The notes under the pieces are model-generated. The model was not told where the DNA came from and did not search any database. It was given only the letters and a program-made list of their open reading frames with translations. A stretch of DNA of 51,051 bases, from IMG/VR virus record IMGVR_UViG_3300047272_000461, positions 1 through 51,051 of that record; one strand, given 5' to 3'. Shown one piece after another: positions 2,626 to 50,152 of the stretch; position 1 is the stretch's first letter; the number at the start of each line of letters is the position of its first letter. The position numbers and the translations under genes were made by a program. Origin of the DNA: a virus. Its lineage: Duplodnaviria; Caudoviricetes.

Positions 2626-2654
2626 AGTGGAACAGACAACCGCTTGCGTGTCAA
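2626..2654 (-). promoter_or_regulatory. Early sigma70-like promoter TTGACA-N17-TCCACT with CAAGCGGTTG palindrome in the spacer
   Basis: Exact 17-bp spacing; same architecture recurs at about ten other sites. Confidence 0.65.
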
Positions 2655-4185: not shown

Positions 4186-4236
4186 ACCAAGGACGATGCT
4201 CAACCGATTGTGTTTTGGCAAGCAGATAATTAGTAT

Positions 4237-6620: not shown

Positions 6621-7136
6621 TCACTCCCCAAGGAGCGTCTTGAGGGCGCGCTCGTAGCGCTTCACCTGACCCGGATTGTCGTTGTCCTTCAGGTTGGAGC
6701 GGAGGTCGGAAATCTTCACCTCCCGTGCTATCCTGTTAGGCTTCACAATCTGCTCGATGTATTCCTGGTAAGTCATCTGCCGCTCTTCGGCTGGCGGGCG
6801 CGTCAGGGCGTTCACCGCCTCGATGACGTTCTCTGGGATGCCCTCTTCCCTCATCTCCTTCGCTGTGATGCCCCCGTCCTCCATCGTGTCGTGTAGGTAT
6901 GCAGCCAGTTTGGCTTCAGGGGACTTCACGCCGGCTACCACCTCACGCACATGGGTCATGTATGGCGAACCATCCCTTCGCTTCTGCGTGGCGTGCGCAA
7001 ACTCGGCGATGCTTTCGGCGGACTTCAGGATGGCCGCTTGGTCCCTCCCAGACTGGCGTAGGGACTCGTTCTCAAGCGAGAAGGGGTATCCCCTGCCCGA
7101 CTGCTCCGAAAGCGACCTGGACGCCCCACGGGCCAT
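6621..7136 (-). CDS. HD-domain hydrolase (SpoT-HD/Mesh1-like, putative (p)ppGpp hydrolase) with MARG leader
   Basis: AHATQKRRDGSPYMTH, AAYLHDTMED, VKISDLRSN motifs. Confidence 0.85.
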   Translation of the reverse strand: MARGASRSLSEQSGRGYPFSLENESLRQSGRDQAAILKSAESIAEFAHATQKRRDGSPYMTHVREVVAGVKSPEAKLAAYLHDTMEDGGITAKEMREEGIPENVIEAVNALTRPPAEERQMTYQEYIEQIVKPNRIAREVKISDLRSNLKDNDNPGQVKRYERALKTLLGE

Positions 7137-7798
7137 CAGTCGTTAATGTTCGGCTCGCCTCGCTTGTAGTATTCGTCCGGGATGACGTAGACCTTTGCGC
7201 CCAAGTCAATGTTGGCCGCCAGTCGGTCACCAAGGTCCTTCAGGGGTCTTGGCTCACCAAGCTCGGTGATTTTGACCTTGTTGCCTGCATTGTCCTTGAA
7301 GGTGAACTCGTCACGCGCACGAAGCTGGTCGCCGATGAATAGGAACGTCTGCTTGTCCGGACCCTTGCCAGCCGTAGCCATCGACACGTTCGTGTCGGCG
7401 TAGAAACGCATAAAGGACTCTGCGTCCTGTCTGCGGTATTCCACCGGCAGCTCGCCGAGAATACCAGTCCTGGCGCGGACTTCTGCCAGCTTCTGCTCCG
7501 ACTCAAGAACCATCTTGCCGACCTCCTTGGCGAAGTTGGCCCTGTCGCCGCTGTCCACCAACGCCTTTAGGCGGTCTGCCATACCCTTGTTGAAGGCGCT
7601 AATCTCTTCCTTCACGCCCAAAGCGACGGCGTAAGGAGACTTGGCTGCCTGACGACCAACCGACTCAAGCTTGGTCCCAATCTTGGAGTAGTTTGAGGAA
7701 GCCCTTTGGCTTGCCCGGTATTGGGCAATCTCGTCCGAGCCGCCTCCAAGTTGACGAAGGGTTCTTTCAGACTGCGCTCTCGATGTTCCTCTGGCCAT
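7136..7798 (-). CDS. Hypothetical protein with MARG N-terminus
   Basis: 220-aa ORF; N-terminus resembles that of the HD protein; preceded by late motif at 7807-7820. Confidence 0.75.
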   Translation of the reverse strand: MARGTSRAQSERTLRQLGGGSDEIAQYRASQRASSNYSKIGTKLESVGRQAAKSPYAVALGVKEEISAFNKGMADRLKALVDSGDRANFAKEVGKMVLESEQKLAEVRARTGILGELPVEYRRQDAESFMRFYADTNVSMATAGKGPDKQTFLFIGDQLRARDEFTFKDNAGNKVKITELGEPRPLKDLGDRLAANIDLGAKVYVIPDEYYKRGEPNIND

Positions 7799-7824
7799 GA
7801 TGCCTCTGGGGTGGTGTCCACCTA

Positions 7825-8910
7825 TCAGACCAACTTGGCCCAGGCCTTCTGGCCCTTGCGGAACGGAAGCAGGAGCTTCCAGACCTGTCCCCGGATGAAA
7901 TACTTGAGGACGTAGTCCAGCGGGTAGTTGTTCATGGCCTTGTTCCTATCGCTTTGCTGGAGCTTGTAGATTTGGTAGAGGCGGTTGAGCGCGAGGGTTC
8001 GCGGCTTCCCCTCGTCGTAATGCTCCTTGATGTATTCCTCGATGCCCTCGATGGACTGGGCATACTTGGCGATGAGCGCTTGGTCGTCTCGCTCGCCCGC
8101 ATACCGGTCGTGGATGACTTGCTCCGGGAAAATCTTCAGCAGCTGGTCGTAGAACATAGGGTCGATTTGCCGCAACTTCTTCAGGTGGCGCATCTTCTCC
8201 GGGTGCAGGAAGGGACTGGTTCGCAGCTCCATCTTGGCAAACAACTGCCAATCGTAGATTTGGCAGTAAGGCAGCTTGTTGTCGTAGAGATACTTCAGGA
8301 CATCGTTCTCCTCCCAGTCGTAGAGCGGCTTGCAGAGCGTTGCCGCCTTCCAGCCAAGGGGCTTGTTGATGTAGTTCTCGACGAGTTTGTTGACCGAACC
8401 GCGCCACCTAAAGCGGGACTCGGATGCGCGGATGCCGTTCAGCTGCGCGACCTTGCCCACGAAGAATTGGCACTGATACTCCTCGACGTCCTCAATCCAC
8501 CAGTCTCTGTCCCAATTCGCAGCGTCCGGGCGTATGGCATAGGACGGCATCGGCACCATCGTCTCACGCTTCTTGTCCCATTGGACGAACTCGACGCATC
8601 GGTCAAAGACCATGCGGAGGCCTGGCTCCGGGATGCAGATGTGGTGCATCCGCACCCAAGGGAACGCCGCGTAGTGGCGCACGAAGTCGATGGTGGGCTT
8701 GAGTGTGAACTCGTCGTGGCGGAACACGCAGTTGACGAACTCCAGCCCTCGCTCCTGGGCGACTTCCCACGCCAGGTGAAGCAGGACTTGCGAGTCCTTG
8801 CCCCCAGAGAATAGGACCACCGGCGTATCGTGGGTGTCGTAGATGTGGTGGAGGCGTTGGCGAGCTGCGTCCAGCACGCTGATGCCCATCTGTTCTTTGT
8901 AGCGACTCAT
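7825..8910 (-). CDS. PAPS-reductase family protein, IbrA/DUF3440-like
   Basis: SVLDAARQRL, PP-loop FSGGKDS, GIRASES..R, KPLYDW...DV motifs. Confidence 0.88.
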   Translation of the reverse strand: MSRYKEQMGISVLDAARQRLHHIYDTHDTPVVLFSGGKDSQVLLHLAWEVAQERGLEFVNCVFRHDEFTLKPTIDFVRHYAAFPWVRMHHICIPEPGLRMVFDRCVEFVQWDKKRETMVPMPSYAIRPDAANWDRDWWIEDVEEYQCQFFVGKVAQLNGIRASESRFRWRGSVNKLVENYINKPLGWKAATLCKPLYDWEENDVLKYLYDNKLPYCQIYDWQLFAKMELRTSPFLHPEKMRHLKKLRQIDPMFYDQLLKIFPEQVIHDRYAGERDDQALIAKYAQSIEGIEEYIKEHYDEGKPRTLALNRLYQIYKLQQSDRNKAMNNYPLDYVLKYFIRGQVWKLLLPFRKGQKAWAKLV

Positions 8911-9574: not shown

Positions 9575-9603
9575 CTGTTCATCGTCAACACTTTTCCACT
9601 ATG

Positions 9604-9674
9604 CAGGTTCGCAGGGACTCGAACCCCGACTCTTGGTATCAAAAACCAGTATGCTGCCATTACATCACGAACCT
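9604..9674 (-). tRNA. tRNA-Gln(TTG)
   Basis: Acceptor AGGTTCG/CGAACCT, anticodon loop TTTTGAT, GTTCGAGTC T-loop; no encoded CCA. Confidence 0.85.
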
Positions 9675-9681
9675 GTGGAAG

Positions 9682-9755
9682 TGGTGGACCGTGGGAGAGT
9701 CGAACTCCCATCGCCCGGATGCAAACCGGGGGTTCTGCCATTGAACTAACAGCCC
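9682..9755 (-). tRNA. tRNA-Ala(TGC)
   Basis: Cloverleaf, CCCGG-TTTGCAT-CCGGG, ends ACCA. Confidence 0.92.
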
Positions 9756-9763
9756 TATGAGAT

Positions 9764-9837
9764 TGGGAGCGGGGGTGGGAGTCGAACCCACCATAACAAG
9801 CTTATGAGACTTGCCGCTCCACCGGGAGCTCCCCGCC
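9764..9837 (-). tRNA. tRNA-Met(CAT)
   Basis: CAAGT-CTCATAA-GCTTG, T-arm GTGGGTTCGACTCCCAC, CCA end. Confidence 0.82.
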
Positions 9838-9842
9838 ATAAA

Positions 9843-9918
9843 TGGAGGACATCCTTGGACTTCAACCAAGTAGAAGTTGCTTTGCAGGCAACGGCCTCGT
9901 GCCTTCGGCTTGATGTCC
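9843..9918 (-). tRNA. tRNA-Cys(GCA)
   Basis: GTTGC-CTGCAAA-GCAAC, ends TCCA; variant T-loop TTGAAGT. Confidence 0.82.
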
Positions 9919-9924
9919 TGAAAC

Positions 9925-9997
9925 TACGGCAAGCGGGGGTCGAACCCGCAACATCCAGTTTGGAAAACTGACACTCTGCCAATTGAGTTACTGCCGT
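9925..9997 (-). tRNA. tRNA-Gly(TCC)
   Basis: TCAGT-TTTCCAA-ACTGG; no encoded CCA. Confidence 0.88.
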
Positions 9998-10002
9998 GAA
10001 AG

Positions 10003-10075
10003 CACCAAGGGGTGGGGTCGAACCACCGACAGACGCATTAACAGTGCGTTGCTCTGCCAACTGAGCTACCTTGAT
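10003..10075 (-). tRNA. tRNA-Asn(GTT)
   Basis: ACGCA-CTGTTAA-TGCGT; canonical D and T arms. Confidence 0.9.
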
Positions 10076-10078
10076 AAA

Positions 10079-10153
10079 TGGTTGTCGAGGAAGGAGTCGA
10101 ACCTTCATCTGCCGGTTCGTAGCCGGCCATTCTGTCCGTTGAAATACCCGACA
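10079..10153 (-). tRNA. tRNA-Arg(ACG)
   Basis: GCCGG-CTACGAA-CCGGC, ACCA end. Confidence 0.9.
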
Positions 10154-10159
10154 ATAAAC

Positions 10160-10234
10160 TGGTCACCGAGACAGGACTTGAACCTGCAACCTCCTGGTCC
10201 CAAACCAGGCGCGATGCCATTACGCTACTCGATG
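10160..10234 (-). tRNA. tRNA-Pro(TGG)
   Basis: CCTGG-TTTGGGA-CCAGG, ACCA end. Confidence 0.92.
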
Positions 10235-10240
10235 TTAGGA

Positions 10241-10306
10241 TGACGCATAGAAGGAGTTTGAACCTTCTTCCCCCGATGGACGGGATGCAGCTTACACCAA
10301 TGCGTC
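10241..10306 (-). tRNA. Atypical short tRNA-like element (possible CCA anticodon)
   Basis: Acceptor GACGCAT/ATGCGTC, T-arm GAAGG-TTCAAACT-CCTTC, shrunken D arm, CCCG-TCCAT-CGGG anticodon arm. Confidence 0.55.
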
Positions 10307-10309
10307 AAG

Positions 10310-10399
10310 TGGTAGAGGGTGTCCGATTTGAACGGACGAGCGTTTTACCGCTATCTGTTTTCAAGACAGGTGCATTAAGCCGGACTCTGCCAACCCTCT
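10310..10399 (-). tRNA. tRNA-Ser(TGA)
   Basis: CTGT-CTTGAAA-ACAG, long variable arm AGCG-GTAAAA-CGCT, CCA end. Confidence 0.9.
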
Positions 10400-10405
10400 G
10401 TAAAA

Positions 10406-10480
10406 TGGTGACCCGAACAGGACTCGAACCTGTATTAGGTGGGTAGAAGCCACCGGTTCTGTCCATTGAACTATCGGGTC
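10406..10480 (-). tRNA. tRNA-Arg(TCT)
   Basis: GGTGG-CTTCTAC-CCACC, ACCA end. Confidence 0.92.
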
Positions 10481-10483
10481 AAA

Positions 10484-10557
10484 TGGCGGGGAGTGTCGGA
10501 GTCGAACCGACCCCAGTGGATTTGGAGACCACTGTGCTACCGAAACACTTACTCCCC
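10484..10557 (-). tRNA. tRNA-Trp(CCA)
   Basis: GTGGT-CTCCAAA-TCCAC, GCCA end. Confidence 0.88.
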
Positions 10558-10563
10558 AAATAC

Positions 10564-10635
10564 TGGGCGCGGATGGACTCGAACCAGCATTAGCCCGTTA
10601 TGAGCGGGTCGTTCTGACCTTTGAACTACACGCCC
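10564..10635 (-). tRNA. tRNA-Ile2/Met(CAT)
   Basis: CCCG-CTCATAA-CGGG; 5' GGGCGTG acceptor resembles Ile2 (lysidine) type. Confidence 0.85.
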
Positions 10636-10644
10636 AAGAAAGAT

Positions 10645-11022
10645 TTACCGGGTGGAAAACCATTGAGTCGAGTAGCTGCGCTCGCTCCCTCCCCGGCGGT
10701 ATCGTAAGTTTCTCTACGACCCAATTGTGCTTCCCACCTCACGGAGGGAGGACTTGGTTTCGCCCCACGCTACGCCCTTCACGGCCTTGGTGGTTAACCA
10801 GGAGCGCTCCAAGCGGTCACAGCGTGACGCTTCTGAACCCGTAGCAAGCCCCCTTAACACCTTGAGGCGAGGGAGGGTCCTGCATCGGAAAAACCAACCA
10901 CACGATTTGTCCGCCATGTTCCGGCGGGTCGCTCGGTGACTTTGCACCGAAAGAGCAGGCGTCATCTGACGATGAACTGACCCCCTTGGGGTCGTGCTGG
11001 TTCGCATACGCAAACCACACCC
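10645..11022 (-). ncRNA. ~380-nt structured RNA within the tRNA array, GOLLD-like
   Basis: Continuous hairpins (GACCCC-AAG-GGGGTC, TCGGTG/CACCGA, CCGCC/GGCGG, GNRA loops, terminal CCGGG/CCCGG), potential GCTAC/GTAGC pseudoknot; no credible ORF. Confidence 0.6.
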
Positions 11023-11027
11023 ACAAA

Positions 11028-11102
11028 TGGAGCATCGGGACGGACTTGAACCGACAACCCTCTGTTTACAAAACAGGAGCTCTGCCATTGAGCTACCAAT
11101 GC
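11028..11102 (-). tRNA. tRNA-Thr(TGT)
   Basis: CTGT-TTTGTAA-ACAG, TCCA end. Confidence 0.92.
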
Positions 11103-11114
11103 GTTAGCAATCGC

Positions 11115-11191
11115 TGGCAGGACCGTTGGGACTCGAACCCAAATTACCGGAATGAAAATCCGGAGTCCTGAACCAGTTAAACGACGACCCC
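11115..11191 (-). tRNA. tRNA-Glu(TTC)
   Basis: CCGGA-TTTTCAT-TCCGG, GCCA end. Confidence 0.9.
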
Positions 11192-43449: not shown

Positions 43450-44451
43450 TCAACCAATGTAGCTCCCGCCCTCAAACGACATAGGCGTCGCCGGCTGGGA
43501 ATACATTTGGGGAAGGGTGGTTCGCTGCGCGTGACGACGCATCGACTTGATGTCTTCGATGAGCGCCTCGAACGAGTCGATGACTCCGGTCGTAAGACCA
43601 CGGGCGGCAGCCTTGTCGCCGTAGAACGACTGCCCTTGTAGGTCTGTCAGTTGGGCGTAGAGGCGAACCGACTGGACGTCCCGGATGAACCGGTTGTGGA
43701 GCTCGTCCACTTCGTCTTGCAGGGAATTGATTTGGTCGGGGGTAAGCGAGGTGCCTTCGACACCAGCCGCCTTGTATTTTCCCGACTTGATGACGACAAC
43801 TTCCTTACCCTCTTTCTCGAACTTCTTACGCTCGTCGGTCATCGTGATGTAGACACCGCAAGCCCCGACGGAGGCAGAGGGGGTAGCGACGAAACGCTTG
43901 CACTGGGACGCCATCCAGAAGGCGGCAGAACCGCAATCGGAGTCCGTAAAGGAGATGGTCGGCTTTTCGTATGTGCGGATTTGCTTGGCAAGCTCCTCAA
44001 GACCAGTCGTCGAGCCACCGCCGGAGTCCACACGCAGTAGGACCTCAAACACCGTGTCATCTTCAGCCCAGCTCTTCAGGGTGTCCGAAATCACGTCGAT
44101 GTCGGCGCAACCGAGCATCGCTTCGAGGGGGGAGAGGCACTTTCCGATGACTCCCTTGACCGGAATGATACCGATGCCATCACGCACATAAGGGCGTGAG
44201 GCGGTAGCGATACCCGCCGCCATCGCTTGTAGGTCCATGTCCTCGTCGTCCGCCTGCGGGACGAAACGCTTCGCCTTCGGGCCGACTTCCGGCTTCTCCA
44301 CCTTCGGCATCATGTATGCCGAAAGCTGGTATGCGATTTCAGGATTAGACAGGATGGTGTCCGCGCCTTTCAGGAACGCCTGAACCTTGAGGGGGTCAAT
44401 CAGGAGGGGTCGTCCCGCCTTCAGTGCGTAAGTTAGGTCGCTTCTAATCAT
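43450..44451 (-). CDS. S49 (SppA/lambda gpC-type) prohead protease
   Basis: IPVKGVI, VDSGGG, CGSAAFWMAS, VGACGV, SGKYKAAG motifs. Confidence 0.92.
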   Translation of the reverse strand: MIRSDLTYALKAGRPLLIDPLKVQAFLKGADTILSNPEIAYQLSAYMMPKVEKPEVGPKAKRFVPQADDEDMDLQAMAAGIATASRPYVRDGIGIIPVKGVIGKCLSPLEAMLGCADIDVISDTLKSWAEDDTVFEVLLRVDSGGGSTTGLEELAKQIRTYEKPTISFTDSDCGSAAFWMASQCKRFVATPSASVGACGVYITMTDERKKFEKEGKEVVVIKSGKYKAAGVEGTSLTPDQINSLQDEVDELHNRFIRDVQSVRLYAQLTDLQGQSFYGDKAAARGLTTGVIDSFEALIEDIKSMRRHAQRTTLPQMYSQPATPMSFEGGSYIG

Positions 44452-46175
44452 CGAGAGAATGGCTGTTCCCTGTTGCGGGAAAGCCCTGGATTTTGTTTTG
44501 GCAGGGTGTCAACAGAAGTTTCCATCTGCGTCGCCGGTTCGGCTGCAGGACTCTTCTGCGGAGGAGCGAGCTCTGGTTCGCTGTTCGTGAGCGCGTCTCC
44601 CGGCATCTGGTCTGCGGGCTGTCCCATGATTTGGTCGATGGGGACGATTTGGGGCGAACCATCTGGACCTGGCATAACCACGCCCAACGCACCTTCGGGG
44701 ATAGTGTTCGCGGCAGGGGCTCCGCCGCCTCCGCCTTGACCGCCTGCGGGCGACTTGCGCCAAAGCTTGTCCTCCGGCACGCCAGTCTCCTTCGACACAC
44801 GCTGAATGTAGGCAAAGTCTCTCGCCGATTTTCTGATGGTCTTCTCGAAGCCATAGCCACGAGCTCCAAAGTCATCCGACGGCGGGATACGACCCATGTC
44901 CAAGTCGGCGCGTTCGTTCGCACCCTCACGGCCTGCGTCCACGGTCACGCTCTTGCAACACACCCACTCCGTCTTCCACCAGTTGCGAGCATTAGGCAGC
45001 TCCTTGCGGTCAATCTTGATGCCACACCAGAACTGGAAGTAGTCCTGGAGGAAGCGATTGATGAGCACCGTCTGGCGATGCGAGAAAAATCTCCCCGCCT
45101 TCGCTACCACGAGGCGAACGGAAGCACCTCCAGCGCGAGTCGGGTCCGCCACGAACTCGTAAGGAAGCCCGCCCATGATAGAGTCGCGGCGTAGATGGTC
45201 GATAAACCCGGCAAAAGCAGCTGAAGGGCGTGCAGACTGGTAAGAGACGAGGGACTCATTGTTTCCAAGAACTGCGGTCACACCACCAAGGACACGGTTC
45301 AGCGCGTCGGGGTCGGTGTTGGCGGTGGCGGAGTTGCCTTCGCCCAAGGGCTGACCAAGACCCAGGTCACCGGAGTCCATCCGGGTGTCTTCCACCTTCA
45401 GGATGCGACTGGTGCGGCTGTTGTCCTTAACAGCGACCTTCTCCATAGCGAGGAGGTCCATCTCATCACGCATGTGATTGATGGCGTGCTGGTGCGGCGG
45501 GAAGGCTCGGCTCTGCGAGGCGTATTCCACGTCGTAGATGTGCATCATCGACGCCGCCTTAATAGGCTCGTATTTGCCGTCGCCTTGCTTGACGTAGTAG
45601 AAGGTCGGACGACCCAGCTTGTCGAAGCGGATGCCGTCAAAGATGTCCGGCAGGGACATCGCATCGGGCGGAGTCTCGACTCTGTGGGCCTCGATGATTT
45701 GGAACTTCGGGTTGCCCTTCTTATCCTTGCACTTGATGACGAAGATTTCCCCGTCCCGGTCCAAGGCTTCGCAAATGATGTAGAGCGACTCCAGCATCGA
45801 GAAGCGCCCGCTGATTTCTGGGCGGATGCACTCCTGCTCCCATTCGGCTTCCACCAGGTTCTGCCAGTCGTAGTCCCCACCCAAAGCTTGCAGACCGATA
45901 CCCTCGCCCACCGAGTAGATGGCCGTGTCCTTAATCATCTGCTTGTATAGGCCGTTATTCTTCTCCAACCAGCGGGAAAGGCGAACCATCTCACGACGAG
46001 TCGCCCCCGTCATCTCCATGCGGAAGTCCGTCGGCTGCGGCGCGTCAATGCGCGTGCGGTGGACGGAGTAGCGGGTAGACTCGAAAGCCCCCTGATACGC
46101 CTTCGGCTTCAGGAGGTTGGACAGGGACATGCGGACCCGGTCAACAAGTCCTGGCTTCTTCGGTTCGAGTGGCAT
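44448..46175 (-). CDS. Portal protein, lambda family
   Basis: SR.LEKNN, SVGEG, DGEIF, GIRFDKLGRP.FY, GLPYE motifs. Confidence 0.92.
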   Translation of the reverse strand: MPLEPKKPGLVDRVRMSLSNLLKPKAYQGAFESTRYSVHRTRIDAPQPTDFRMEMTGATRREMVRLSRWLEKNNGLYKQMIKDTAIYSVGEGIGLQALGGDYDWQNLVEAEWEQECIRPEISGRFSMLESLYIICEALDRDGEIFVIKCKDKKGNPKFQIIEAHRVETPPDAMSLPDIFDGIRFDKLGRPTFYYVKQGDGKYEPIKAASMMHIYDVEYASQSRAFPPHQHAINHMRDEMDLLAMEKVAVKDNSRTSRILKVEDTRMDSGDLGLGQPLGEGNSATANTDPDALNRVLGGVTAVLGNNESLVSYQSARPSAAFAGFIDHLRRDSIMGGLPYEFVADPTRAGGASVRLVVAKAGRFFSHRQTVLINRFLQDYFQFWCGIKIDRKELPNARNWWKTEWVCCKSVTVDAGREGANERADLDMGRIPPSDDFGARGYGFEKTIRKSARDFAYIQRVSKETGVPEDKLWRKSPAGGQGGGGGAPAANTIPEGALGVVMPGPDGSPQIVPIDQIMGQPADQMPGDALTNSEPELAPPQKSPAAEPATQMETSVDTLPKQNPGLSRNREQPFSR

Positions 46176-46420
46176 CAGCGGTCAACCAGACGGTTGTAGT
46201 TCGTGTAAAGGGCACGCACCCTCCCATCCAGTCTCTGAAGGGCGTAGTTCGCCTCCTGGAGCATCTGCTGTGGTGGTAGGGCAAACTGCTTGCTGGCGTT
46301 CGTAGCGCCATCGCCGTAGCTCATGATGGTCTTGCCCTCCAGTATGAGCTGGACGGCCTTATCACGGATTGCCTCGACTGTTTCACGAGGGAGTCCGACA
46401 AATAGTCCGTTGGCTGGCAT
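46175..46420 (-). CDS. Head-tail joining protein (gpW-like)
   Basis: 81 aa directly before portal; LEGKTIMSYG pattern. Confidence 0.7.
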   Translation of the reverse strand: MPANGLFVGLPRETVEAIRDKAVQLILEGKTIMSYGDGATNASKQFALPPQQMLQEANYALQRLDGRVRALYTNYNRLVDR

Positions 46421-46444
46421 CGTGCTTTTGGCACGCTGTCAACG

Positions 46445-46810
46445 GGCTATCGGTATTTCGTTCACAAAAGGGATGGTTCGCTGTATGACCCCTTGAACCC
46501 CATTGAGATGACCCCGTAGAGCCGTTTCCCATGATGCTGCCGCTCGTCTCCGAAGCGGTCTTTCATCAGCCGAACCAAAGTAAAGGAGCACCAAGACTTT
46601 TGTAGGCGGGAACCTTTCGGTCTATGCCCCGCCCACGCTGTCTGTCTTGGCATCTTGGCTCGCTTGTTTCCGATGGAGGTCGCCCTCCGGAGTGGAACCG
46701 CCGCCCCGCATCTCCCCCGGTTTGGACCCAGGTAATTGCTGAAGCGACGTGTTAGTAGCGAGTCGCAGCACCACCCTGCTTACGCAGGACCGCCGGTTTC
46801 CCGACGGCAA
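46445..46810 (-). ncRNA. ~360-nt GNRA-rich structured RNA (unknown family)
   Basis: GCCGTCGG-GAAA-CCGGCGGT, CCTGC-GTAA-GCAGG, GGAGG-GCGA-CCTCC, CC-GAAA-GG, long CCAAGAC/GTCTTGG helix; no credible ORF. Confidence 0.6.
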
Positions 46811-46858
46811 AGTTTTAAAGAACTGAAGGTAGTCTTACCCTCGTAGGCAGTTTGTCAA
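46811..46858 (-). promoter_or_regulatory. Late-type motif, hairpin and boxA-like GTTCTTTAAAACT
   Basis: TTGACA-AACTG-CCT, then AGGGTA-AGAC-TACCTT, then CAGTTCTTTAAAACT. Confidence 0.6.
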
Positions 46859-46873
46859 CTGTATTTTTTAGAG

Positions 46874-46987
46874 TCGCCGTGGAGGAGTCGAACCTCCGTC
46901 CACGAGTCCTTTCAAGAGGCCTGGGTCTTGCGAACCAGTGCCACCGCCAATCAAGGCGGCTTCCAAGGACAGCACCACGCTACGGCG
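46874..46987 (-). ncRNA. tRNA-like RNA A (acceptor + T-arm, branched central arm)
   Basis: CGCCGT/ACGGCG, GGAGG-TTCGACT-CCTCC. Confidence 0.7.
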
Positions 46988-46994
46988 TAAAGTG

Positions 46995-47270
46995 TATTCA
47001 GCAACCGACAGCACTCCCTTGTCTCCCCCGCGGCTTATTGCGGTTTCTATCCGGGTGCTCCGTGTCAGAGCTGTGGACCTTTCGGCTACCCACGCCTGTT
47101 GCCCGCCAACTGCCGGCCGTCCCACGAAAGAGGTGGGCTGTCTCCGGTGCAAGAATACCCCCTGCGTAGACAGGGCTTGTCCAGTTCGCTTGCGGCACTT
47201 TTCAGATGCCGACGGGTGATAGGCCGTCCCTCCTTGCGGAGCTGTGCGAGTGGTTTGCGTGGCGTTGAAA
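46995..47270 (-). ncRNA. ~275-nt structured RNA (unknown family)
   Basis: Closing TTCAAC/GCTGAA, CTCC-GCAA-GGAG, CC-GAAA-GG, GGCA/TGCC and CCCTG/CAGGG hairpins. Confidence 0.5.
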
Positions 47271-47290
47271 TGTCAGAAGAACAGAAAGAG

Positions 47291-47443
47291 TGGCGGGTGG
47301 TGGGACTTGAACCCACAATCTTCAAGGTGACGTTTTAAACCGCCGCAGGGGACTAACCCTGCGCTACCTTGCCTCTGCGTTGCCCTTGGCCGTAGTTACT
47401 TCGGCCCCCAGGACTTCTTACTCCCTGGGACGCTACACCCCCC
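47291..47443 (-). ncRNA. tRNA-like RNA B (expanded D and anticodon arms, GCCA end)
   Basis: GGGTG/CACCC, GTGGG-TTCAAGT-CCCAC, GCGT/ACGC D stem. Confidence 0.72.
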
Positions 47444-47471
47444 ATAAAGTTTTCAAGTTTCGATTACGGGC

Positions 47472-47554
47472 CTGATTTTCTCTCCCCCCTTTCGGGGGGT
47501 TGTAGGCGTGCTTGCTAACGCCTCGTTGTTCGAGCTTTCGCTCTACAAAATCAG
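47472..47554 (-). ncRNA. Multibranch RNA module
   Basis: Closing CTGATTTT/AAAATCAG with GAGC-GAAA-GCTC, AGGCGT/ACGCCT, CCCCCC-GAAA-GGGGGG. Confidence 0.65.
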
Positions 47555-47555
47555 T

Positions 47556-47708
47556 AGACCCCGGCTGGACTTGAACCAGCAACTGAAATTACTCGTGACT
47601 TATCCCTCGACGCAGACGTCTACGTCGGGGGCATCCATCGCTTTCATTCACCCATCATCGCGCGTTAACACGCTTCGGGCCAACTCGGACCAATCGAGTA
47701 GCGGGGTC
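47556..47708 (-). ncRNA. tRNA-like RNA C (about 80-nt expansion after D arm)
   Basis: GACCCCG/CGGGGTC, ACTCG-ATTGGTC-CGAGT, GCTGG-TTCAAGT-CCAGC. Confidence 0.72.
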
Positions 47709-47719
47709 GTAAGTGACTC

Positions 47720-47770
47720 TCCTGGTTGGCGACGCTCTTATCGCAGAGCGGGCGTTGGTCGGCGCCAGGA
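47720..47770 (-). ncRNA. Long hairpin module
   Basis: TCCTGG/CCAGGA closing, inner CGCTCT/AGAGCG. Confidence 0.5.
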
Positions 47771-47808
47771 TGGTCTGAAACTTGAATGTCAAAAGAACTG
47801 AAAGGGGA

Positions 47809-47880
47809 GCTGGTTGGTGGGACTCTACACGGTTTGGATGCGTGTGAGTGGTATGTTGCGACTTCGCATCCCACGCCAGC
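47809..47880 (-). ncRNA. Three-way junction module
   Basis: GCTGG..TGGGA / TCCCA..CCAGC closing; 3' TCCC. Confidence 0.55.
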
Positions 47881-47884
47881 AAGG

Positions 47885-47958
47885 TGGAGTCGGCGTTGCC
47901 GTTTTTACGGCACTCCCTCCGCAGAGGGATTTCGCAGCTCGGTCATTCGAGCGCCGAC
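47885..47958 (-). ncRNA. tRNA-sized cloverleaf without anticodon or T loops, 3' UCCA
   Basis: GTCGGC/GCCGAC+TCCA; GCTCG/CGAGC; TCCCTC-TGCG-GAGGGA; TGCCGT-AAAA-ACGGCA. Confidence 0.65.
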
Positions 47959-47968
47959 ATAAAGGGGA

Positions 47969-48043
47969 CTGGCGGTCCATTCATCAAGAGGCATACGGTG
48001 CGTGCTTTGAGGTGAAGGGGTTTGTTCCAACCCCACCCGCCAG
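47969..48043 (-). ncRNA. Three-way junction module
   Basis: CTGGCGG/CCGCCAG closing, GGGGTT/AACCCC hairpin; 3' TCCC. Confidence 0.55.
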
Positions 48044-48052
48044 AAATGTAGA

Positions 48053-48161
48053 GAGTCGCCTTTGGTCTTTTCGCTCACTCCCCAGTCGTTGTTGCGGCTT
48101 GGTCGTGGTTCACAGCCCCTGCTTGTTGCAGAGGACTTACGGTAGATTTTTCAGGCGACTC
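48053..48161 (-). ncRNA. Multibranch RNA module (first in array)
   Basis: 9-bp closing helix GAGTCGCCT/AGGCGACTC. Confidence 0.55.
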
Positions 48162-48250
48162 AAAGAACAGAGGGTAGTTAACCCTGATGAGAGAAGACAA
48201 TCAGATACCCAAGGGCTTGACAAGCGCAAAGTGAAAAAAAGTGAAAATAG
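48160..48250 (-). promoter_or_regulatory. ncRNA-array promoter/leader: T-tract UP-like element, TTGTCA-N17-TTGTCT, hairpin AGGGT-TAACT-ACCCT, boxA-like CTGTTCTTTGA
   Basis: Direct read; leader nearly duplicated at 46811-46842. Confidence 0.55.
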
Positions 48251-48313
48251 TTCAGACCCCCCATTTTCATTGGGGTTTTCAGGGTATTCCAAACTACTGC
48301 GCGTCCAGACCTA

Positions 48314-50152
48314 TCAGGCTGGAGGGGCTTCGGCAGGCTGGTCGGCGGGCTTCTCCTCCGGGGGAGGGGGAGGCGGCGGGGCGAGGAAACCGAACGCCAG
48401 GGCCGGCACGAACTGCATCACTTCGCAGTCCCAAAGGTGGTTCGCTCGCTTGCCGATGCGCTTCCATTCGGGCTTGCCTGCCAGGTTCTTCGTGCGGACT
48501 TCCGACTCCATCTGGTCGAGGTAGTCCTGGCCGCAGTCCGTCGCCGTCGTGTGCTTGCCCACCTTACGCATGCGGGAGAGCTGGTCTTTGAGAGCCAAGT
48601 TGGAGAAGTGATGGACTCGCACGGGTCCTGTGCCGACGTTCACCATACGCGCGGGCGCGTAGACCTTGCCCACCGGCTTGCGTCCCTTCGGCGTATCCAC
48701 CATCCAGGTGAACTCATAGCGTTGGTCGCCTCGTAGTGCCGTCCACTTGTTGATACCGCATTGGCGGATGACGTCGTCGAACTGGTCACCGCAGTCAACG
48801 TATGTCAGGGCGGGGTGGACTTCCAACGCCTTGCCCATCGCAATCACGTCTTCCCAAGTCTGCACATACCGCCACTTGATGAGGCGCGAGTCGCCTCCTT
48901 CCGCCCAGCCGCGAACCAGCACGAAGAAGCCCTCACGCTGGACGTCGACGGACATGAAACGAGCTCGTATCTGCTTCTCCCGCTTGTGGTCGGAATGTAT
49001 CTTGCGGGTCGCAGGGTCGATGCGGGCTTCCTTGTCCCACTCATCCCCCATCTTGTAGTCCCCAATGGTTTGTAGGCTTCCAAAGTCATCCGGGGCATCC
49101 GACCAGAACTGGGCCTTCTGCTTCTGGGTGAAAATCTGCATCGGCTTCGAGTCGCCGTTCGTGTCCAAGGCGAGCTTCGCCCGGACATACATCTCCGCCA
49201 TACCGCCCCAGGAACGGGCCGCCAAGCCACTCCAAGTGTAGCCGTGGTTCGCAGGGTCGGCCGACGGGTTTGTGATGGCATAGAACCCCCTTGCGTTGAA
49301 ATCGTCTCGGTTCGAGCGGGTGTCGTTGAACTGCTTCTTGCACCCCTCGCACTCATACTTCGTCTCCCGCTTGATGAGGCCATAGTCAAAGTCCCCATCC
49401 CTCTGCATCGCATCGGGTATCCTCACCTGGTCCCAGCTCCACGGCTGACGATGCCCGCAATCCGGGCATGCGAACGACCACACCCTCATGTCCGTCGTCT
49501 TCCACACCGCCTCGGTGTCGTCCCCAACGAACGACCCCTGCGACATGAAGATACGCTTACCCAACCAACCGAAAGAGGTCACACGCGCGGACGCTTCCGC
49601 AAGGTGGCCCTGCGGCCACAGCCAAGTCTCGTCACCCACCAGCCATCGGATAGAACGCCGTTGTAGGTTCTTCTCATTGAACGCCCCCAGACACCAGAAA
49701 GTCATGTCCTCCGTCTGCACCGTCCCTGACTTCTTCCCCGTCTCGTCCTTCGACAGCTTCGCAATCACCGGGGGCACGTTCTCCCACAGCACTCGTAGGC
49801 GGCTCTGCATCCAGTCCGCCGCGTTCGAGTCTTGGTCGTTCAGGTAAAGCGTCGGGGCAGGCTGGCGGGCTATGATGAAGCACGACAGCATCTCCGCCAT
49901 CAGGGACTTGCCCGACTGAATGGGCGCGATGGTCACCACCAAGCGAACCTCCGGGTCGGCGCACGCCCGAAGCGGCTCCGCCAACCAAGGCGTCTCCTGA
50001 ACCCGGAAACCCGACGGCATCGGCGAGAAAGGTATCTGCCTGATGTTCTCCTCCAACCAAGTCACGATGTCCCCACCCTCGTCAGGGCGGAACACCTTCC
50101 TGATGCGGGCTTCCAACTGGTCGGCTATCGCCTCCTTCTGGGCAGGGGTCAT
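48314..50152 (-). CDS. Terminase large subunit, lambda GpA family
   Basis: ETPWL.EP, Walker A APIQSGKS, Walker B LVGDE, CPDCG/CEGC Zn motif, MSVDVQ and NHLWDCEV nuclease motifs. Confidence 0.95.
   Translation of the reverse strand: MTPAQKEAIADQLEARIRKVFRPDEGGDIVTWLEENIRQIPFSPMPSGFRVQETPWLAEPLRACADPEVRLVVTIAPIQSGKSLMAEMLSCFIIARQPAPTLYLNDQDSNAADWMQSRLRVLWENVPPVIAKLSKDETGKKSGTVQTEDMTFWCLGAFNEKNLQRRSIRWLVGDETWLWPQGHLAEASARVTSFGWLGKRIFMSQGSFVGDDTEAVWKTTDMRVWSFACPDCGHRQPWSWDQVRIPDAMQRDGDFDYGLIKRETKYECEGCKKQFNDTRSNRDDFNARGFYAITNPSADPANHGYTWSGLAARSWGGMAEMYVRAKLALDTNGDSKPMQIFTQKQKAQFWSDAPDDFGSLQTIGDYKMGDEWDKEARIDPATRKIHSDHKREKQIRARFMSVDVQREGFFVLVRGWAEGGDSRLIKWRYVQTWEDVIAMGKALEVHPALTYVDCGDQFDDVIRQCGINKWTALRGDQRYEFTWMVDTPKGRKPVGKVYAPARMVNVGTGPVRVHHFSNLALKDQLSRMRKVGKHTTATDCGQDYLDQMESEVRTKNLAGKPEWKRIGKRANHLWDCEVMQFVPALAFGFLAPPPPPPPEEKPADQPAEAPPA

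What the first reader, a model, noticed from the sequence alone, without database searches (positions are those of the whole stretch)
46445..48190. Polycistronic array of ~11 structured ncRNAs / tRNA mimics between terminase and gpW-portal
Seen: TerL ends at 48314 and gpW starts at 46420, and the gap has no ORF with phage-like codon usage. On the minus strand it resolves into consecutive self-closed modules: 48053-48161, 47969-48043, 47885-47958, 47809-47880, 47720-47770, 47556-47708, 47472-47554, 47291-47443, 46995-47270, 46874-46987 and 46445-46810. They are separated by short pyrimidine-rich linkers, and several closing helices carry acceptor-like 3' tails (TCCA, TCCC, TCCC, GCCA, GCCC). 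GNRA loops read on the minus strand. Established: in lambdoid phages TerL, gpW and portal are normally contiguous. Inference: this is a dedicated RNA operon, cut into units by tRNA-processing enzymes (RNase P, 3' trimming, CCA addition). The units could be decoys or aptamers against host defence or translation factors, or packaging-associated RNAs. I know of no described system with this organisation.
Basis: partly seen in the sequence, partly recalled or inferred. Interest (0 to 1): 0.93.

Follow-up and report, generated by a model that had tools for sequence, protein, structure and literature searches.

The report
Phage island of tRNA-like RNA genes
A freshwater phage carries, between its DNA-packaging gene and its portal gene, a 1.9-kb string of about a dozen small folded RNA genes, some built on a tRNA frame; related phages keep their shapes, but what they do is unknown.

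Summary
The 1,893-nt TerL-gpW gap (46421-48313) is non-coding by the phage's own codon usage. On the minus (TerL-sense) strand it resolves into about 13 self-closed units.

There the units are gained, lost and reordered one by one. Seven units were tested with controls or counted in the fold tool, and all show compensatory base-pair changes.

Nothing in the gap reaches an Rfam gathering score. Three units (M6, M8, M10) keep a tRNA acceptor stem and T-arm. M6 is a 153-224-nt "giant tRNA" whose anticodon arm is replaced by a multi-hairpin domain. M3 is a cloverleaf with a free UCCA end. In relatives, true tRNAs sit inside the same island.

Transcription, processing by tRNA enzymes and function are not shown. 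The best reading is a lineage-specific accessory island of stable RNAs, some tRNA-scaffolded, matured like a tRNA array. It is a new variant of known phage tRNA-island RNAs (T4 RNA C/D, GOLLD/ROOL).

The parts
48314..50152 (-). Large terminase (TerL, gpA type), upstream border of the island
   Evidence: Pfam GpA_ATPase 2e-30 and GpA_nuclease 5.3e-18. Relatives align to about residue 590; the Pro-rich tail is not conserved.
48162..48313 (-). M0: conserved leader after the TerL stop. Holds a TTGTCA box (48218-48223) and a short hairpin followed by CUGUUCUUU just before M1.
   Evidence: Homologues in 9 loci at 74-84% identity. 0 of 15 predicted pairs show compensatory change, so it is probably a DNA or transcription signal, not a folded RNA. 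The hairpin was flagged as terminator-like.
48053..48161 (-). M1: 109-nt RNA with a 9-bp closing helix and a three-way junction whose junction strands are invariant
   Evidence: z -3.4. 11 sequences: 16 of 25 pairs have double changes, 0 of 500 shuffles reach this, slid controls give at most 5. A motif scan of IMG/VR found it only in the same clade.
47969..48043 (-). M2: 75-nt closed RNA with an invariant GGGGUUGGAAYAAACCCC hairpin
   Evidence: 9 sequences, 6 of 14 pairs compensatory. Placed before M1 in L006.
47885..47958 (-). M3: 74-nt cloverleaf with a 7-bp acceptor-like stem, three hairpins capped by short loops, and a free UCCA 3' end. It has no anticodon loop and no T-loop.
   Evidence: z -5.9. 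4 sequences, 3 of 23 pairs compensatory, none broken, UCCA in 4 of 4. No tRNA hit at E up to 10.
47809..47880 (-). M4: 72-nt closed RNA
   Evidence: z -4.1. Only one homologue (L006, 97% identical, full length), so covariation cannot be tested.
47785..47808 (-). Recurrent linker motif C(U/A)GUUCUUU(UGACAUU). Other copies lie at 48162-48178, 47269-47298 and 46817-46833, in front of M1, M5, M9a and M11a.
   Evidence: Repeat families D1 and D2. Kept between M8 and M9a in L006. Role unknown.
47716..47774 (-).
   Evidence: 4 sequences, 7 of 17 pairs compensatory; the closing helix differs completely in L007 and L009.
47556..47708 (-). M6: giant tRNA-like RNA. It has a 7-bp acceptor stem, a D-arm with a GG loop and a T-arm (UUCAAGU loop). 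The anticodon arm is replaced by a 92-nt multi-hairpin domain (up to about 150 nt in relatives).
   Evidence: 8 sequences of 153-222 nt. In the tRNA core, 8 of 17 pairs have double changes (6 of 7 in the acceptor), 0 of 500 shuffles reach this, slid controls give at most 2. L002 and L004 have a canonical-scoring tRNA at the same slot (57.7 bits).
47472..47554 (-). M7: 83-nt four-way-junction RNA with two GAAA-capped hairpins
   Evidence: z -5.9. 7 sequences, 7 of 24 pairs compensatory.
47291..47443 (-). M8: 153-nt tRNA-shaped RNA. It has an 8-bp closing helix with an internal mismatch, branched D-like and anticodon-like arms, and a T-arm.
   Evidence: 9 sequences: 16 of 44 pairs have double changes, 0 of 500 shuffles reach this, slid controls give at most 5. 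Weak Rfam tRNA-Sec hit, 20.1 bits against a cut-off of 47. The 3' part of the L006 copy gives a weak tmRNA-ends hit, 21.8 bits against 47.
47113..47270 (-). M9a: 158-nt multi-helix RNA with GCAA and GAAA loops and an invariant GGCAUCUGAAAAGUGCC hairpin
   Evidence: 9 sequences: 19 of 44 pairs have double changes, 0 of 500 shuffles reach this, slid controls give at most 2. An IMG/VR motif scan found it only in the same clade.
46995..47114 (-). M9b: 120-nt unit with strongly conserved sequence. It is independent of M9a.
   Evidence: 13 sequences. Order swapped relative to M9a in L013 and L096; present without M9a in L030, L039, L019 and L121. Structure poorly resolved: 2 of 20 pairs compensatory.
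46874..46987 (-). M10: 114-nt tRNA-like RNA with a short acceptor helix, a canonical T-arm (GGAGG-UUCGACU-CCUCC), a highly conserved core and one variable covarying hairpin
   Evidence: 11 sequences: 9 of 35 pairs have double changes, 0 of 500 shuffles reach this, slid controls give at most 4. ARAGORN calls its 3' 77 nt a tRNA in relatives, but Rfam tRNA does not reach its cut-off there. tRNA-Sec 24.6 bits against a cut-off of 47.
46583..46810 (-).
   Evidence: 8 sequences, 23 of 45 pairs compensatory.
46445..46582 (-).
   Evidence: 9 sequences, 10 of 21 pairs compensatory. Found apart from M11a in L039, L019 and L013.
46175..46420 (-). gpW-like 81-aa ORF, downstream border. The lambda-type portal follows at 44448-46175.
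   Evidence: Codon score +0.375. Conserved at 73-96% in relatives next to the portal. No Pfam or PHROG family. Portal: Pfam Phage_portal_2 2.7e-32.
9603..11191 (-). Second RNA island of the same phage. It holds 13 canonical tRNAs and three non-tRNA structured spacers (10637-11027, 391 nt; 9838-9924; 10235-10309, tRNA-like with a T-arm).
   Evidence: ARAGORN and Rfam. The tRNA-Thr, the 391-nt spacer and the tRNA-Met/Trp have homologues inside the TerL-gpW islands of L039, L019, L121, L030 and L013.

Best explanation
The TerL-gpW gap is a lineage-specific accessory island of about 12 separate small structured RNA genes, read in the same direction as the late structural genes.

Some units derive from tRNAs and still carry the parts that tRNA-maturation enzymes recognise: an acceptor stem stacked on a T-arm, a D-loop/T-loop elbow and, in one case, a free N-CCA end. 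They have lost the anticodon arm. In M6 and M8 that arm is replaced by large branched domains, a natural counterpart of the engineered 'tRNA scaffold'. The other units are unrelated compact folds with GNRA loops and invariant junctions.

**Shown:** the gap is non-coding, it is modular, structure is conserved with covariation, the strand is the minus strand, some units keep a tRNA-like core, and real tRNAs are mixed into relatives' islands.

**Inferred:**
- The island is transcribed as one or a few precursors.
- Host RNase P, RNase E/Z and exonucleases release the units at the short U-rich spacers, as in a tRNA operon.
- The products are stable RNAs.

**Most likely role (inference, about 1 in 4):** they bind and titrate host or phage proteins that act on tRNA-shaped RNA. 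Examples are defence enzymes that attack tRNA acceptor ends or the tRNA body. This would make them decoys or sponges, not decoders.
For: **Non-coding.** Every stop-free stretch scores negative on the codon model, against about +0.37 for the flanking genes. Relatives' alignments carry 1-2-nt indels.

**Independent units.** Module-length homology blocks are present, absent or reordered among 23 of 40 non-redundant relatives' gaps.

**Covariation, with controls** (pairs with changes on both sides; 0 of 500 shuffles reach the observed value in every case; slid registers give at most 5):

| Unit | Pairs |
|---|---|
| M1 | 16 of 25 |
| M8 | 16 of 44 |
| M10 | 9 of 35 |
| M9a | 19 of 44 |
| M6 core | 8 of 17 |

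**Covariation, no shuffle control:** M7 7 of 24, M2 6 of 14, M11a 23 of 45, M11b 10 of 21, M5 7 of 17.

**Strand.** G-U pairs make the helices fit the minus strand better: M10 95.6% paired against 83.1% on the plus strand, M8 95.8% against 86.9%. GNRA hairpins number 8 against 1.

**tRNA link.**
- The M6 slot holds a 57.7-bit tRNA in L002 and L004.
- Rfam-grade tRNAs lie inside the islands of L015, L039 and L121.
- A block of the window's real tRNA array is homologous to part of relatives' TerL-gpW islands.
- Spacers before the modules resemble those before the real tRNAs, 9 of 13 of which encode CCA.

**Not decoding.** Two near-complete relatives (97% and 100% by CheckV) have no Rfam-grade tRNA yet keep a 2.5-kb island.

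**Weak expression hint.** Assemblies of two RNA libraries from two studies hold contigs 85-95% alike that span M7 to M9 or M9 to M11. Their depth is 14-28, against 2-14 for TerL contigs in the same runs.
Against: - No transcript, RNA end or processing site was observed. The RNA-library data are contigs, can include DNA, and their depth cannot rank genes.
- The sigma-70 scan found 0 promoters. The terminator-like sites (4) are no more than chance gives (3.2 expected).
- Only 4 of about 13 units have any tRNA feature. Only M3 has a free CCA tail.
- M4 has a single, near-identical homologue. M9b shows almost no covariation (2 of 20). M0 shows none.
- Alignments are small (4-13 sequences) and include close relatives, which inflates the shuffle tests. 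Structures were predicted on the same alignments that were then counted.
- The phage's RtcB ligase is not co-conserved with the island: it is absent from 5 of 5 relatives' records, two of them at least 97% complete.
- Nothing links the RNAs to any defence system, and the host is unknown.
Confidence: 0.6

Rival explanations
1. The structures serve the late mRNA in cis. They would act as processing punctuation, stabilisers, attenuators or terminators that uncouple terS-terL expression from gpW-portal-head expression. The released RNAs would have no function of their own.
For: The island sits inside the late structural operon in the sense orientation. tRNA-like elements can direct RNase P cuts. 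A recurrent hairpin plus CUGUUCUUU motif precedes four units. M0 is conserved without covariation.
Against: One or two elements would suffice, yet 1.9-4.8 kb with a dozen distinct, individually conserved folds is maintained. Units are exchanged with a tRNA array located elsewhere in the genome, outside the late operon. More distant relatives manage with TerL and gpW contiguous.
Confidence: 0.12
2. The units are selfish or neutral cassettes. The TerL-gpW junction would be a recombination hot spot that collects tRNA genes, their derivatives and other mobile small RNA genes. Structure would be conserved only because it is needed for their own spread or stability.
For: Content is mosaic and the order is shuffled. 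The same junction holds unrelated protein-coding morons in other clade members: a family of 272-532-aa proteins with no known domain, and a pentapeptide-repeat protein. Shared linker motifs could mediate exchange.
Against: Junction strands and loops are strongly conserved (for example 40 invariant columns in M1; the M10 core). Compensatory changes indicate selection on the folded RNA. No transposase, integrase, reverse transcriptase or homing nuclease was seen in the island.
Confidence: 0.1
3. The whole gap is one giant multi-domain RNA. It would be either a GOLLD/ROOL-like self-assembling particle or a phi29 pRNA-like packaging RNA acting with the neighbouring terminase and portal.
For: The location is between terminase and portal. 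There are many GNRA loops that could dock into receptors. GOLLD and ROOL lie near phage tRNA islands, and GOLLD can carry tRNAs in a linker (PMC12286853, passages read). RNA-library contigs span several units.
Against: Units are lost, gained and reordered independently, and each closes on itself. No Rfam match to GOLLD, ROOL or pRNA even at E up to 10. Clade members with entirely different gap content still package DNA.
Confidence: 0.07
4. It is a decaying tRNA array, made of pseudogenes and junk spacer without function.
For: ARAGORN and Rfam find no tRNA in the window's gap, whereas relatives have tRNAs there. M6, M8 and M10 look like damaged tRNAs.
Against: Helices are kept by compensatory changes in every unit with enough data. 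The insertions in M6 and M8 are themselves conserved and structured. Most units are not tRNA-like at all.
Confidence: 0.04
5. The gap encodes small proteins that were missed.
For: Several ORFs of 60-105 aa exist in the gap.
Against: All 24 stop-free stretches of at least 50 codons score negative on the codon model. Indels are not multiples of three. Real ORFs from relatives' gaps leave no trace in the window's gap: the best hit has E = 0.001, apart from one spurious ORF (L011, 171 aa) that overlaps M9b and M10.
Confidence: 0.02

Closest known systems
T4 RNA C and RNA D (species 1 and 2 stable RNAs of the T4 tRNA gene cluster)
   Same: Small stable phage RNAs of unknown function, encoded among tRNA genes and made late in infection (PMC9697503, passages read). 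That they are processed with the tRNAs and have tRNA-like ends is recalled, not read here.
   Different: T4 has two such RNAs beside eight real tRNAs. Here about a dozen distinct RNAs form the island, with no real tRNA in this copy and none at all in two near-complete relatives. No sequence comparison with T4 was made.
GOLLD and ROOL large RNAs of phages and prophages
   Same: Structured non-coding phage RNAs of unknown function, often next to tRNA islands. GOLLD sometimes has tRNAs in a linker (PMC12286853, passages read). They are rich in tertiary-contact motifs.
   Different: Those are single RNAs of 580-800+ nt with a fixed architecture. Here there are many small, independently assorting units. 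No Rfam hit to either, even at E up to 10.
tmRNA, and engineered tRNA scaffolds (an RNA of interest inserted in a tRNA anticodon stem)
   Same: M6, M8 and M10 keep an acceptor stem plus T-arm (and a D-arm in M6) while a large foreign domain occupies the anticodon-arm position. tmRNA and laboratory tRNA scaffolds have the same layout. The scaffold comparison is recalled knowledge.
   Different: ARAGORN finds no tag reading frame and no tmRNA. Rfam tmRNA gives only a 21.8-bit ends-only hit in one relative, against a cut-off of 47. No G3-U70 alanine identity pair was seen. Sizes are 114-224 nt, not about 360 nt.
Bacterial Y RNA-like YrlA
   Same: A non-decoding RNA with a tRNA-like module, and some phages encode them (recalled). 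This phage has RtcB, which accompanies rsr-yrlA operons in some bacteria (recalled).
   Different: YrlA scores 16.6 bits against a cut-off of 69. In YrlA the RNA termini lie at the anticodon-side stem, whereas here they lie at the acceptor stem. No Ro/TROVE protein was found among the 30 window ORFs scanned. RtcB is not co-conserved with the island.
Candidate structured RNAs (csRNAs) predicted from IMG/VR
   Same: A large-scale covariation screen of the same database reported 8,495 DNA-virus csRNAs, including 'tRNA or tRNA-like' ones (PMC10690425, abstract and passages read). Some of the units here may already be in that catalogue.
   Different: That catalogue lists single motifs and does not describe an island with this organisation.
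phi29 pRNA
   Same: A phage-encoded structured RNA that works with the packaging ATPase and portal. The island lies between those two genes.
   Different: No Rfam pRNA hit. The island's content varies among phages that share nearly identical TerL and portal, which does not fit an essential motor part.

Membership tests
tRNA (Rfam RF00005 / ARAGORN) | Reaches the family score or is called by a tRNA finder | tested here: not met
   No tRNA in 46421-48313 by ARAGORN or Rfam at gathering score. At E up to 10 there are only tRNA-Sec-like hits: 24.6 bits (M10) and 20.1 bits (M8) against a cut-off of 47. Relaxed ARAGORN intron modes gave implausible calls.
tRNA (Rfam RF00005 / ARAGORN) | 7-bp acceptor stem stacked on a 5-bp T-stem with a 7-nt T-loop | tested here: met
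   Met for M6 (acceptor 6 of 7 pairs covary; T-arm GCUGG-UUCAAGU-CCAGC). Met for M8 (T-arm covaries; 8-bp closing helix with a mismatch). Met for M10 (T-arm GGAGG-UUCGACU-CCUCC; acceptor only 5-6 bp). Not present in the other units.
tRNA (Rfam RF00005 / ARAGORN) | Anticodon arm: 5-bp stem and 7-nt loop | tested here: not met
   In M6 it is replaced by a domain of 92 to about 150 nt. In M8 it is a branched arm. In M3 a 6-bp stem carries a 4-nt loop.
tRNA (Rfam RF00005 / ARAGORN) | Free discriminator plus CCA 3' end (encoded in 9 of 13 real tRNAs of this phage) | tested here: inconclusive
   M3 has a free UCCA, conserved in 4 of 4. In M8 the CC is paired. M6 and M10 have no CCA. Post-transcriptional addition cannot be tested here.
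tmRNA (RF00023) | tRNA-like domain plus an internal tag reading frame and pseudoknots, about 300-400 nt | tested here: not met
   ARAGORN -m finds none. No Rfam hit in the window. One ends-only hit of 21.8 bits against a cut-off of 47 in L006.
YrlA / bacterial Y RNA (RF02553) | Family score, and a Ro (TROVE) protein partner encoded nearby | tested here: not met
   16.6 bits against a cut-off of 69. No TROVE domain in the 30 window ORFs scanned with Pfam. Not every ORF of the window was scanned.
GOLLD / ROOL / raiA / OLE large RNAs | Match to the Rfam covariance model | tested here: not met
   No match at gathering score or at E up to 10 in 46300-48400. None in 12 relatives' loci at gathering score.
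Self-splicing introns / self-cleaving ribozymes | Match to the Rfam group I, group II or small-ribozyme models | tested here: not met
   Only a 21-bit partial group-II-D1D4-4 hit against a cut-off of 49. The CUGAUGA...GAAA in M11b is part of a plain helix.
Stable non-tRNA RNAs of phage tRNA clusters (T4 RNA C/D type) | Encoded among tRNA genes, in the same orientation, separated by short spacers | tested here: met
   Relatives' islands mix the same units with Rfam-grade tRNAs. The window's own 13-tRNA array holds three further non-tRNA structured spacers. The spacers are alike.
Stable non-tRNA RNAs of phage tRNA clusters (T4 RNA C/D type) | Co-transcribed with tRNAs and released by RNase P and other tRNA-processing enzymes as stable species | not testable with these tools
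   Only assembled contigs from RNA libraries were available. No RNA ends could be mapped.

The most novel reading that the evidence does not exclude
This phage lineage has turned tRNA genes into a display platform. The island would be an RNA-only counter-defence or host-takeover cassette. tRNA-scaffolded domains (M6, M8, M10), an anticodon-less cloverleaf with a CCA end (M3) and about eight further compact folds would each be matured by the host's tRNA machinery. Each would then act as a decoy or aptamer for a different host factor, for example toxins that modify or cut tRNA acceptor ends or bodies. The unit-by-unit turnover among relatives would be the footprint of an arms race fought with RNAs instead of proteins.
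Probability: 0.2. Interest if true: 0.85.

Novelty: new variant of a known kind. Interest (0 to 1): 0.62.

Why it matters
If the units are stable RNAs, this 1.9-kb stretch adds about a dozen new covariation-supported RNA families, none of them in Rfam.

- **A new kind of accessory locus.** An accessory island in a phage's late operon can consist entirely of RNA genes. It can persist in relatives that encode no real tRNA.
- **A natural tRNA scaffold.** The giant tRNA-like members are a natural version of a trick used in the laboratory to make foreign RNAs stable and correctly processed.
- **A route to an old question.** What the non-tRNA RNAs of phage tRNA clusters do has been open since T4 RNA C/D. 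These units are small, modular and present or absent in near-isogenic phages, so they suit deletion, pull-down and structure work.
- **Annotation.** Large "empty" gaps in phage structural operons should be screened for RNA genes.

Tried and rejected
**Protein coding.** Rejected.

**Pseudogene remains of the protein genes found at the same junction in relatives.** Rejected. tblastn of 12 such ORFs against the window's gap gave nothing better than E = 0.001, apart from one spurious ORF (L011, 171 aa) that overlaps M9b and M10.

**Known RNA families.** Nothing in the gap at Rfam gathering score. At E up to 10 there were 8 weak hits, all far below their cut-offs. Relatives gave only tRNAs at gathering score (12 loci), and tRNAs plus weak YrlA, tmRNA and snoRNA-like hits at E up to 1 (5 loci).

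**ARAGORN with introns and lowered thresholds.** The 2 to 6 calls had introns of 46-681 nt and were judged spurious.

**Intron-containing tRNA spliced with the phage's RtcB.** Not supported. There is no group I hit, the insert sizes are wrong for group I, and RtcB is absent from 5 of 5 relatives' records.

**Antisense regulation of phage genes.** For 8 conserved single-stranded or loop motifs, the window holds no complementary site beyond the motif's own opposite strand at up to 2 mismatches. The few 2-mismatch hits to 12-13-nt motifs are what chance gives.

**Promoters and terminators.** 0 promoter-like sites. 4 terminator-like sites against 3.2 expected. Uninformative, because the host's promoter type is unknown.

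**Wider distribution.**
- Exact-motif scans of IMG/VR for M1, M9a and M10 returned only contigs of the same clade or short fragments of it.
- A T-arm motif scan mostly hit ordinary tRNAs of other phages.
- blastn against the 50,697 GenBank phage records found no match.

**Host.** The genome-contig scan found only two TerL relatives at 41-42% identity. They lie in MAG contigs labelled Verrucomicrobiota and Phycisphaerales. This is too distant to name a host.

**Expression.** Seven runs held 6-15% of the sampled words. Four were laid. Only contigs were available, so parts without cover and depth differences are not evidence. No starts or ends were found.

**Closed or unused tools.**
- The supplementary tables of PMC10690425, which may list some of these units, are closed.
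- No structure prediction, protein-complex job or covariance-model build was run. The questions were about RNA alignments that the alignment and pair-count tools answered.

**Papers.**
- PMC10690425: abstract and passages.
- PMC12286853: passages.
- PMC9697503: passages.
- PMC11662646: passages (not relevant in the end).
- All other titles: search listings only.
- The statement that no paper describes this organisation rests on those six searches only.

Full report
**Context.** The window is a complete IMG/VR virus record of 51,051 bp (CheckV 100%). Nearly all genes lie on the minus strand. In order they are:
- a small terminase (PHROG 57);
- TerL of the lambda gpA type at 48314-50152;
- the gap;
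- an 81-aa ORF at 46175-46420, gpW-like by position only, with no Pfam or PHROG hit;
- a lambda-family portal;
- an S49 protease.

Elsewhere the phage has 13 canonical tRNAs at 9603-11191 and an RtcB RNA ligase at 2651-3868.

**The gap is non-coding.** The longest ORF wholly inside 46421-48313 is 105 aa. A 236-aa plus-strand ORF (47814-48524) runs antisense into TerL. I trained a codon log-odds model on 11 other genes of the window.
- Held-out TerL scores +0.36, the portal +0.38 and the gpW-like ORF +0.375.
- All 24 stop-free stretches of at least 50 codons in the gap score between -0.04 and -0.55.
- The best-frame sliding score is at or below about zero from about 48,350 to 46,700.
- ARAGORN and Rfam at gathering score find nothing in the gap.
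- At E up to 10 there are only far-sub-threshold hits, the best being tRNA-Sec-like matches to two T-arm-bearing units.

**The modules are real evolutionary units.** Searching with TerL gave 151 related loci. This set has many duplicates between the viral and metagenome collections.
- Where TerL is at least 64% identical and gpW was found (52 loci), the distance from the end of the TerL alignment to gpW is 1,221-4,805 nt.
- Where TerL is 37-58% identical (50 loci), the distance is 99-263 nt in 49 and 837 nt in one.

So the insertion is specific to one clade. That clade gives 40 non-redundant gaps, 25 of them complete. Of these 40, 23 contain at least one unit of the window. The blocks are present, absent or reordered independently. 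Examples are M2 before M1 in L006, M9b before M9a in L013 and L096, and M8 after M9 in L007.

- 46995-47270 is M9a plus M9b.
- 46445-46810 is M11a plus M11b.

The other 17 gaps have lower G+C. Many carry a protein of 272-532 aa from one family without any Pfam domain, or other ORFs. The junction is therefore a general hot spot for accessory genes.

**Structure is conserved.** Pair counts with both controls give the following. In every case 0 of 500 shuffles reach the observed value for pairs changed on both sides, and registers slid by 1-3 columns give at most 5.

| Unit | Pairs changed on both sides | Cells paired |
|---|---|---|
| M1 | 16 of 25 | 93% |
| M8 | 16 of 44 | 96% |
| M10 | 9 of 35 | 96% |
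| M9a | 19 of 44 | 97.5% |
| M6 tRNA-like core | 8 of 17 | 96% |

Without shuffle controls:
- M7 shows 7 of 24.
- M2 shows 6 of 14.
- M11a shows 23 of 45.
- M11b shows 10 of 21 and M5 shows 7 of 17.
- M3 shows 3 of 23 with none broken, in 4 sequences.

Weak or untestable cases:
- M9b has 2 of 20 pairs compensatory, although its sequence is strongly conserved in 13 homologues.
- M4 has a single homologue.
- M0, the 152-nt leader, has 0 of 15.

Caveats: the alignments are small, some rows are close relatives, and the structures were predicted on the alignments that were then counted.

The transcribed strand is the minus strand. G-U pairs make M10 95.6% paired on the minus strand against 83.1% on the plus strand, and M8 95.8% against 86.9%. 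GNRA-capped hairpins number 8 on the minus strand and 1 on the plus strand, with a shuffle mean of 1.17.

**What the units are.** Four have tRNA features.
- **M6 (153 nt; 175-222 nt in seven relatives).** It has a covarying 7-bp acceptor stem, a D-arm with a GG loop and a T-arm with a UUCAAGU loop. In place of the 17-nt anticodon arm sits a multi-hairpin domain of 92 to about 150 nt. At the same slot L002 and L004 carry a 74-nt tRNA that scores 57.7 bits in Rfam.
- **M8.** It has a tRNA-shaped four-way junction in which both the D-like and the anticodon-like arms are branched, plus a T-arm.
- **M10.** It has a canonical T-arm, a 5-6-bp acceptor helix and a very conserved core. ARAGORN calls its 3' 77 nt a tRNA in several relatives, but Rfam does not.
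- **M3.** It is a 74-nt cloverleaf with a 7-bp acceptor-like stem and a free UCCA tail in 4 of 4 sequences. It has short loops instead of anticodon and T loops.

The remaining units (M1, M2, M4, M5, M7, M9a, M9b, M11a, M11b) are compact multi-helix folds with invariant junction strands and GNRA loops. They resemble nothing in Rfam.

**Links to real tRNA arrays.**
- Rfam-grade tRNAs lie inside the islands of L002/L004, L015, L039 and L121.
- A block of the window's own tRNA array is homologous to part of the TerL-gpW islands of L039, L019, L121, L030 and L013. The block comprises tRNA-Thr, a 391-nt structured spacer and tRNA-Met/Trp.
- That array also holds two further tRNA-sized closed non-tRNA units.
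- The 3-10-nt U-rich spacers before M2, M3, M6, M8 and M10 resemble those before the real tRNAs. Of those real tRNAs, 9 of 13 encode CCA.

The island is nevertheless not an appendage of decoding tRNAs. Two relatives judged 97% and 100% complete have no Rfam-grade tRNA anywhere, yet keep 2.5-kb islands. RtcB is absent from all five relatives' records searched, so it is not tied to the island.

**Distribution.** Exact-motif scans of IMG/VR for M1, M9a and M10 hit only this clade. The GenBank phage collection has no match to the gap. A T-arm motif scan incidentally found other non-canonical tRNA-like RNAs in unrelated phage contigs, at L172, L177 and L178. tRNA-derived non-decoding RNAs may therefore be more widespread.

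**Expression.** Only assembled contigs were available. Two RNA libraries from two studies contain contigs 85-95% alike that span M7-(variant M8)-M9 or M9-M10-M11. Their depths are 14-28, against 2-14 for TerL contigs in the same runs. This is a weak hint. DNA carry-over cannot be excluded, and no ends were mapped.

**Interpretation.**
- *Shown:* a clade-specific, sense-oriented island of independent, structurally constrained RNA genes, part of them tRNA-derived.
- *Inferred:* transcription as one or a few precursors, release of the units by the host's tRNA and RNA-processing nucleases at the spacers, and accumulation as stable RNAs.
- *Function not addressed by any result.* I favour decoys or sponges for proteins that recognise tRNA-shaped RNA. 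The tRNA-like members keep exactly the acceptor/T-arm/elbow surfaces and have discarded the anticodon. The unit-by-unit turnover also resembles that of counter-defence genes.

Rivals are cis roles in late-mRNA processing, selfish cassettes at a recombination hot spot, a single giant RNA or packaging RNA, a decaying tRNA array, and missed small proteins. The last two are contradicted by covariation and by the codon statistics.

**Comparison and novelty.** The nearest precedents are the T4 tRNA-cluster RNAs C and D, still of unknown function (PMC9697503), and GOLLD/ROOL next to phage tRNA islands (PMC12286853). tmRNA and laboratory tRNA scaffolds are the nearest architectural analogues of M6 and M8. 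A catalogue of IMG/VR structured-RNA candidates exists (PMC10690425), but its tables could not be opened.

The individual RNAs are new families as far as Rfam 15 shows. The organisation is about a dozen different structured RNAs filling the terminase-portal junction, in some phages without any real tRNA. I rate it a new variant of a known kind, not a new category.

Noticed in passing
window 9603-11191 (-): The 13-tRNA array contains three non-tRNA structured spacers. One is 10637-11027 (391 nt, MFE -157 kcal/mol), conserved at about 70% in L039, L019 and L013. The others are 9838-9924 (87 nt, closed) and 10235-10309 (75 nt), which has an 8-bp closing helix and a T-arm-like hairpin but is not called a tRNA.
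   Followed up: partly
window 2651-3868 (-): RtcB RNA ligase (Pfam 4.5e-75). It is absent from five relatives' records, two of them at least 97% complete, so it is an accessory gene of this phage alone among those checked.
   Followed up: yes
window 7825-8910 (-): PAPS-reductase / PP-loop ATPase-like protein (phrog_2302 1.2e-81; Pfam PAPS_reduct, weak ATP_bind_3) just upstream of the tRNA array. HD-domain, ParB_N and nucleotide-kinase-like ORFs lie nearby (6621-7136, 5889-6563, 5305-5892).
   Followed up: no
window 48162-48178, 47785-47814, 47269-47298, 46817-46833 (-): A recurrent motif C(U/A)GUUCUUU, twice extended to ...UGACAUU, stands in front of M1, M5, M9a and M11a. In two cases a short hairpin comes directly before it. 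It is kept between M8 and M9a in L006. It could be a processing site, a weak terminator or part of a promoter.
   Followed up: partly
window 48218-48223, 46853-46858, 46437-46442 (-): TTGTCA/TTGACA boxes, resembling -35 elements, are conserved in the M0 leader, before M11a and directly before the gpW-like start. No matching -10 was found at a standard spacing.
   Followed up: no
window 48314-48382 (-), TerL residues about 591-612: TerL ends in a proline-rich low-complexity tail that lies beyond the part conserved in relatives, whose alignments stop near residue 590.
   Followed up: no
L036:3853-4704, L127:6959-7777, L032:4352-5263, L009:6354-7460, L019:5759-7282 and 7490-8884, L121:9697-11295: A family of 272-532-aa proteins without any Pfam domain recurs at the same TerL-gpW junction in clade members. 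They are mutually related (blastp 1e-8 to 1e-54). No homologue exists in the window.
   Followed up: partly
L020:2623-3504: A pentapeptide-repeat protein (Pfam 1e-44) sits in a low-G+C (39%) 4.8-kb insert at the same junction.
   Followed up: no
L002:8445-8518 and L004:8452-8525: The canonical-scoring tRNA at the M6 slot has an anticodon loop UGAAAAU (G at position 33). ARAGORN calls it tRNA-Phe(AAA).
   Followed up: no
L172 (match 4177-4198), L177 (5179-5200, -), L178 (2742-2763): Unrelated phage contigs carry other non-canonical tRNA-like RNAs (69, 114 and 102 nt). They have an acceptor stem and T-arm but aberrant or expanded D and anticodon arms, and ARAGORN does not call them.
   Followed up: partly
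L166, L167: The only TerL relatives in species-representative genomes (41-42% identity) lie on MAG contigs labelled Verrucomicrobiota and Phycisphaerales. This is a faint hint at a PVC-group host.
   Followed up: no
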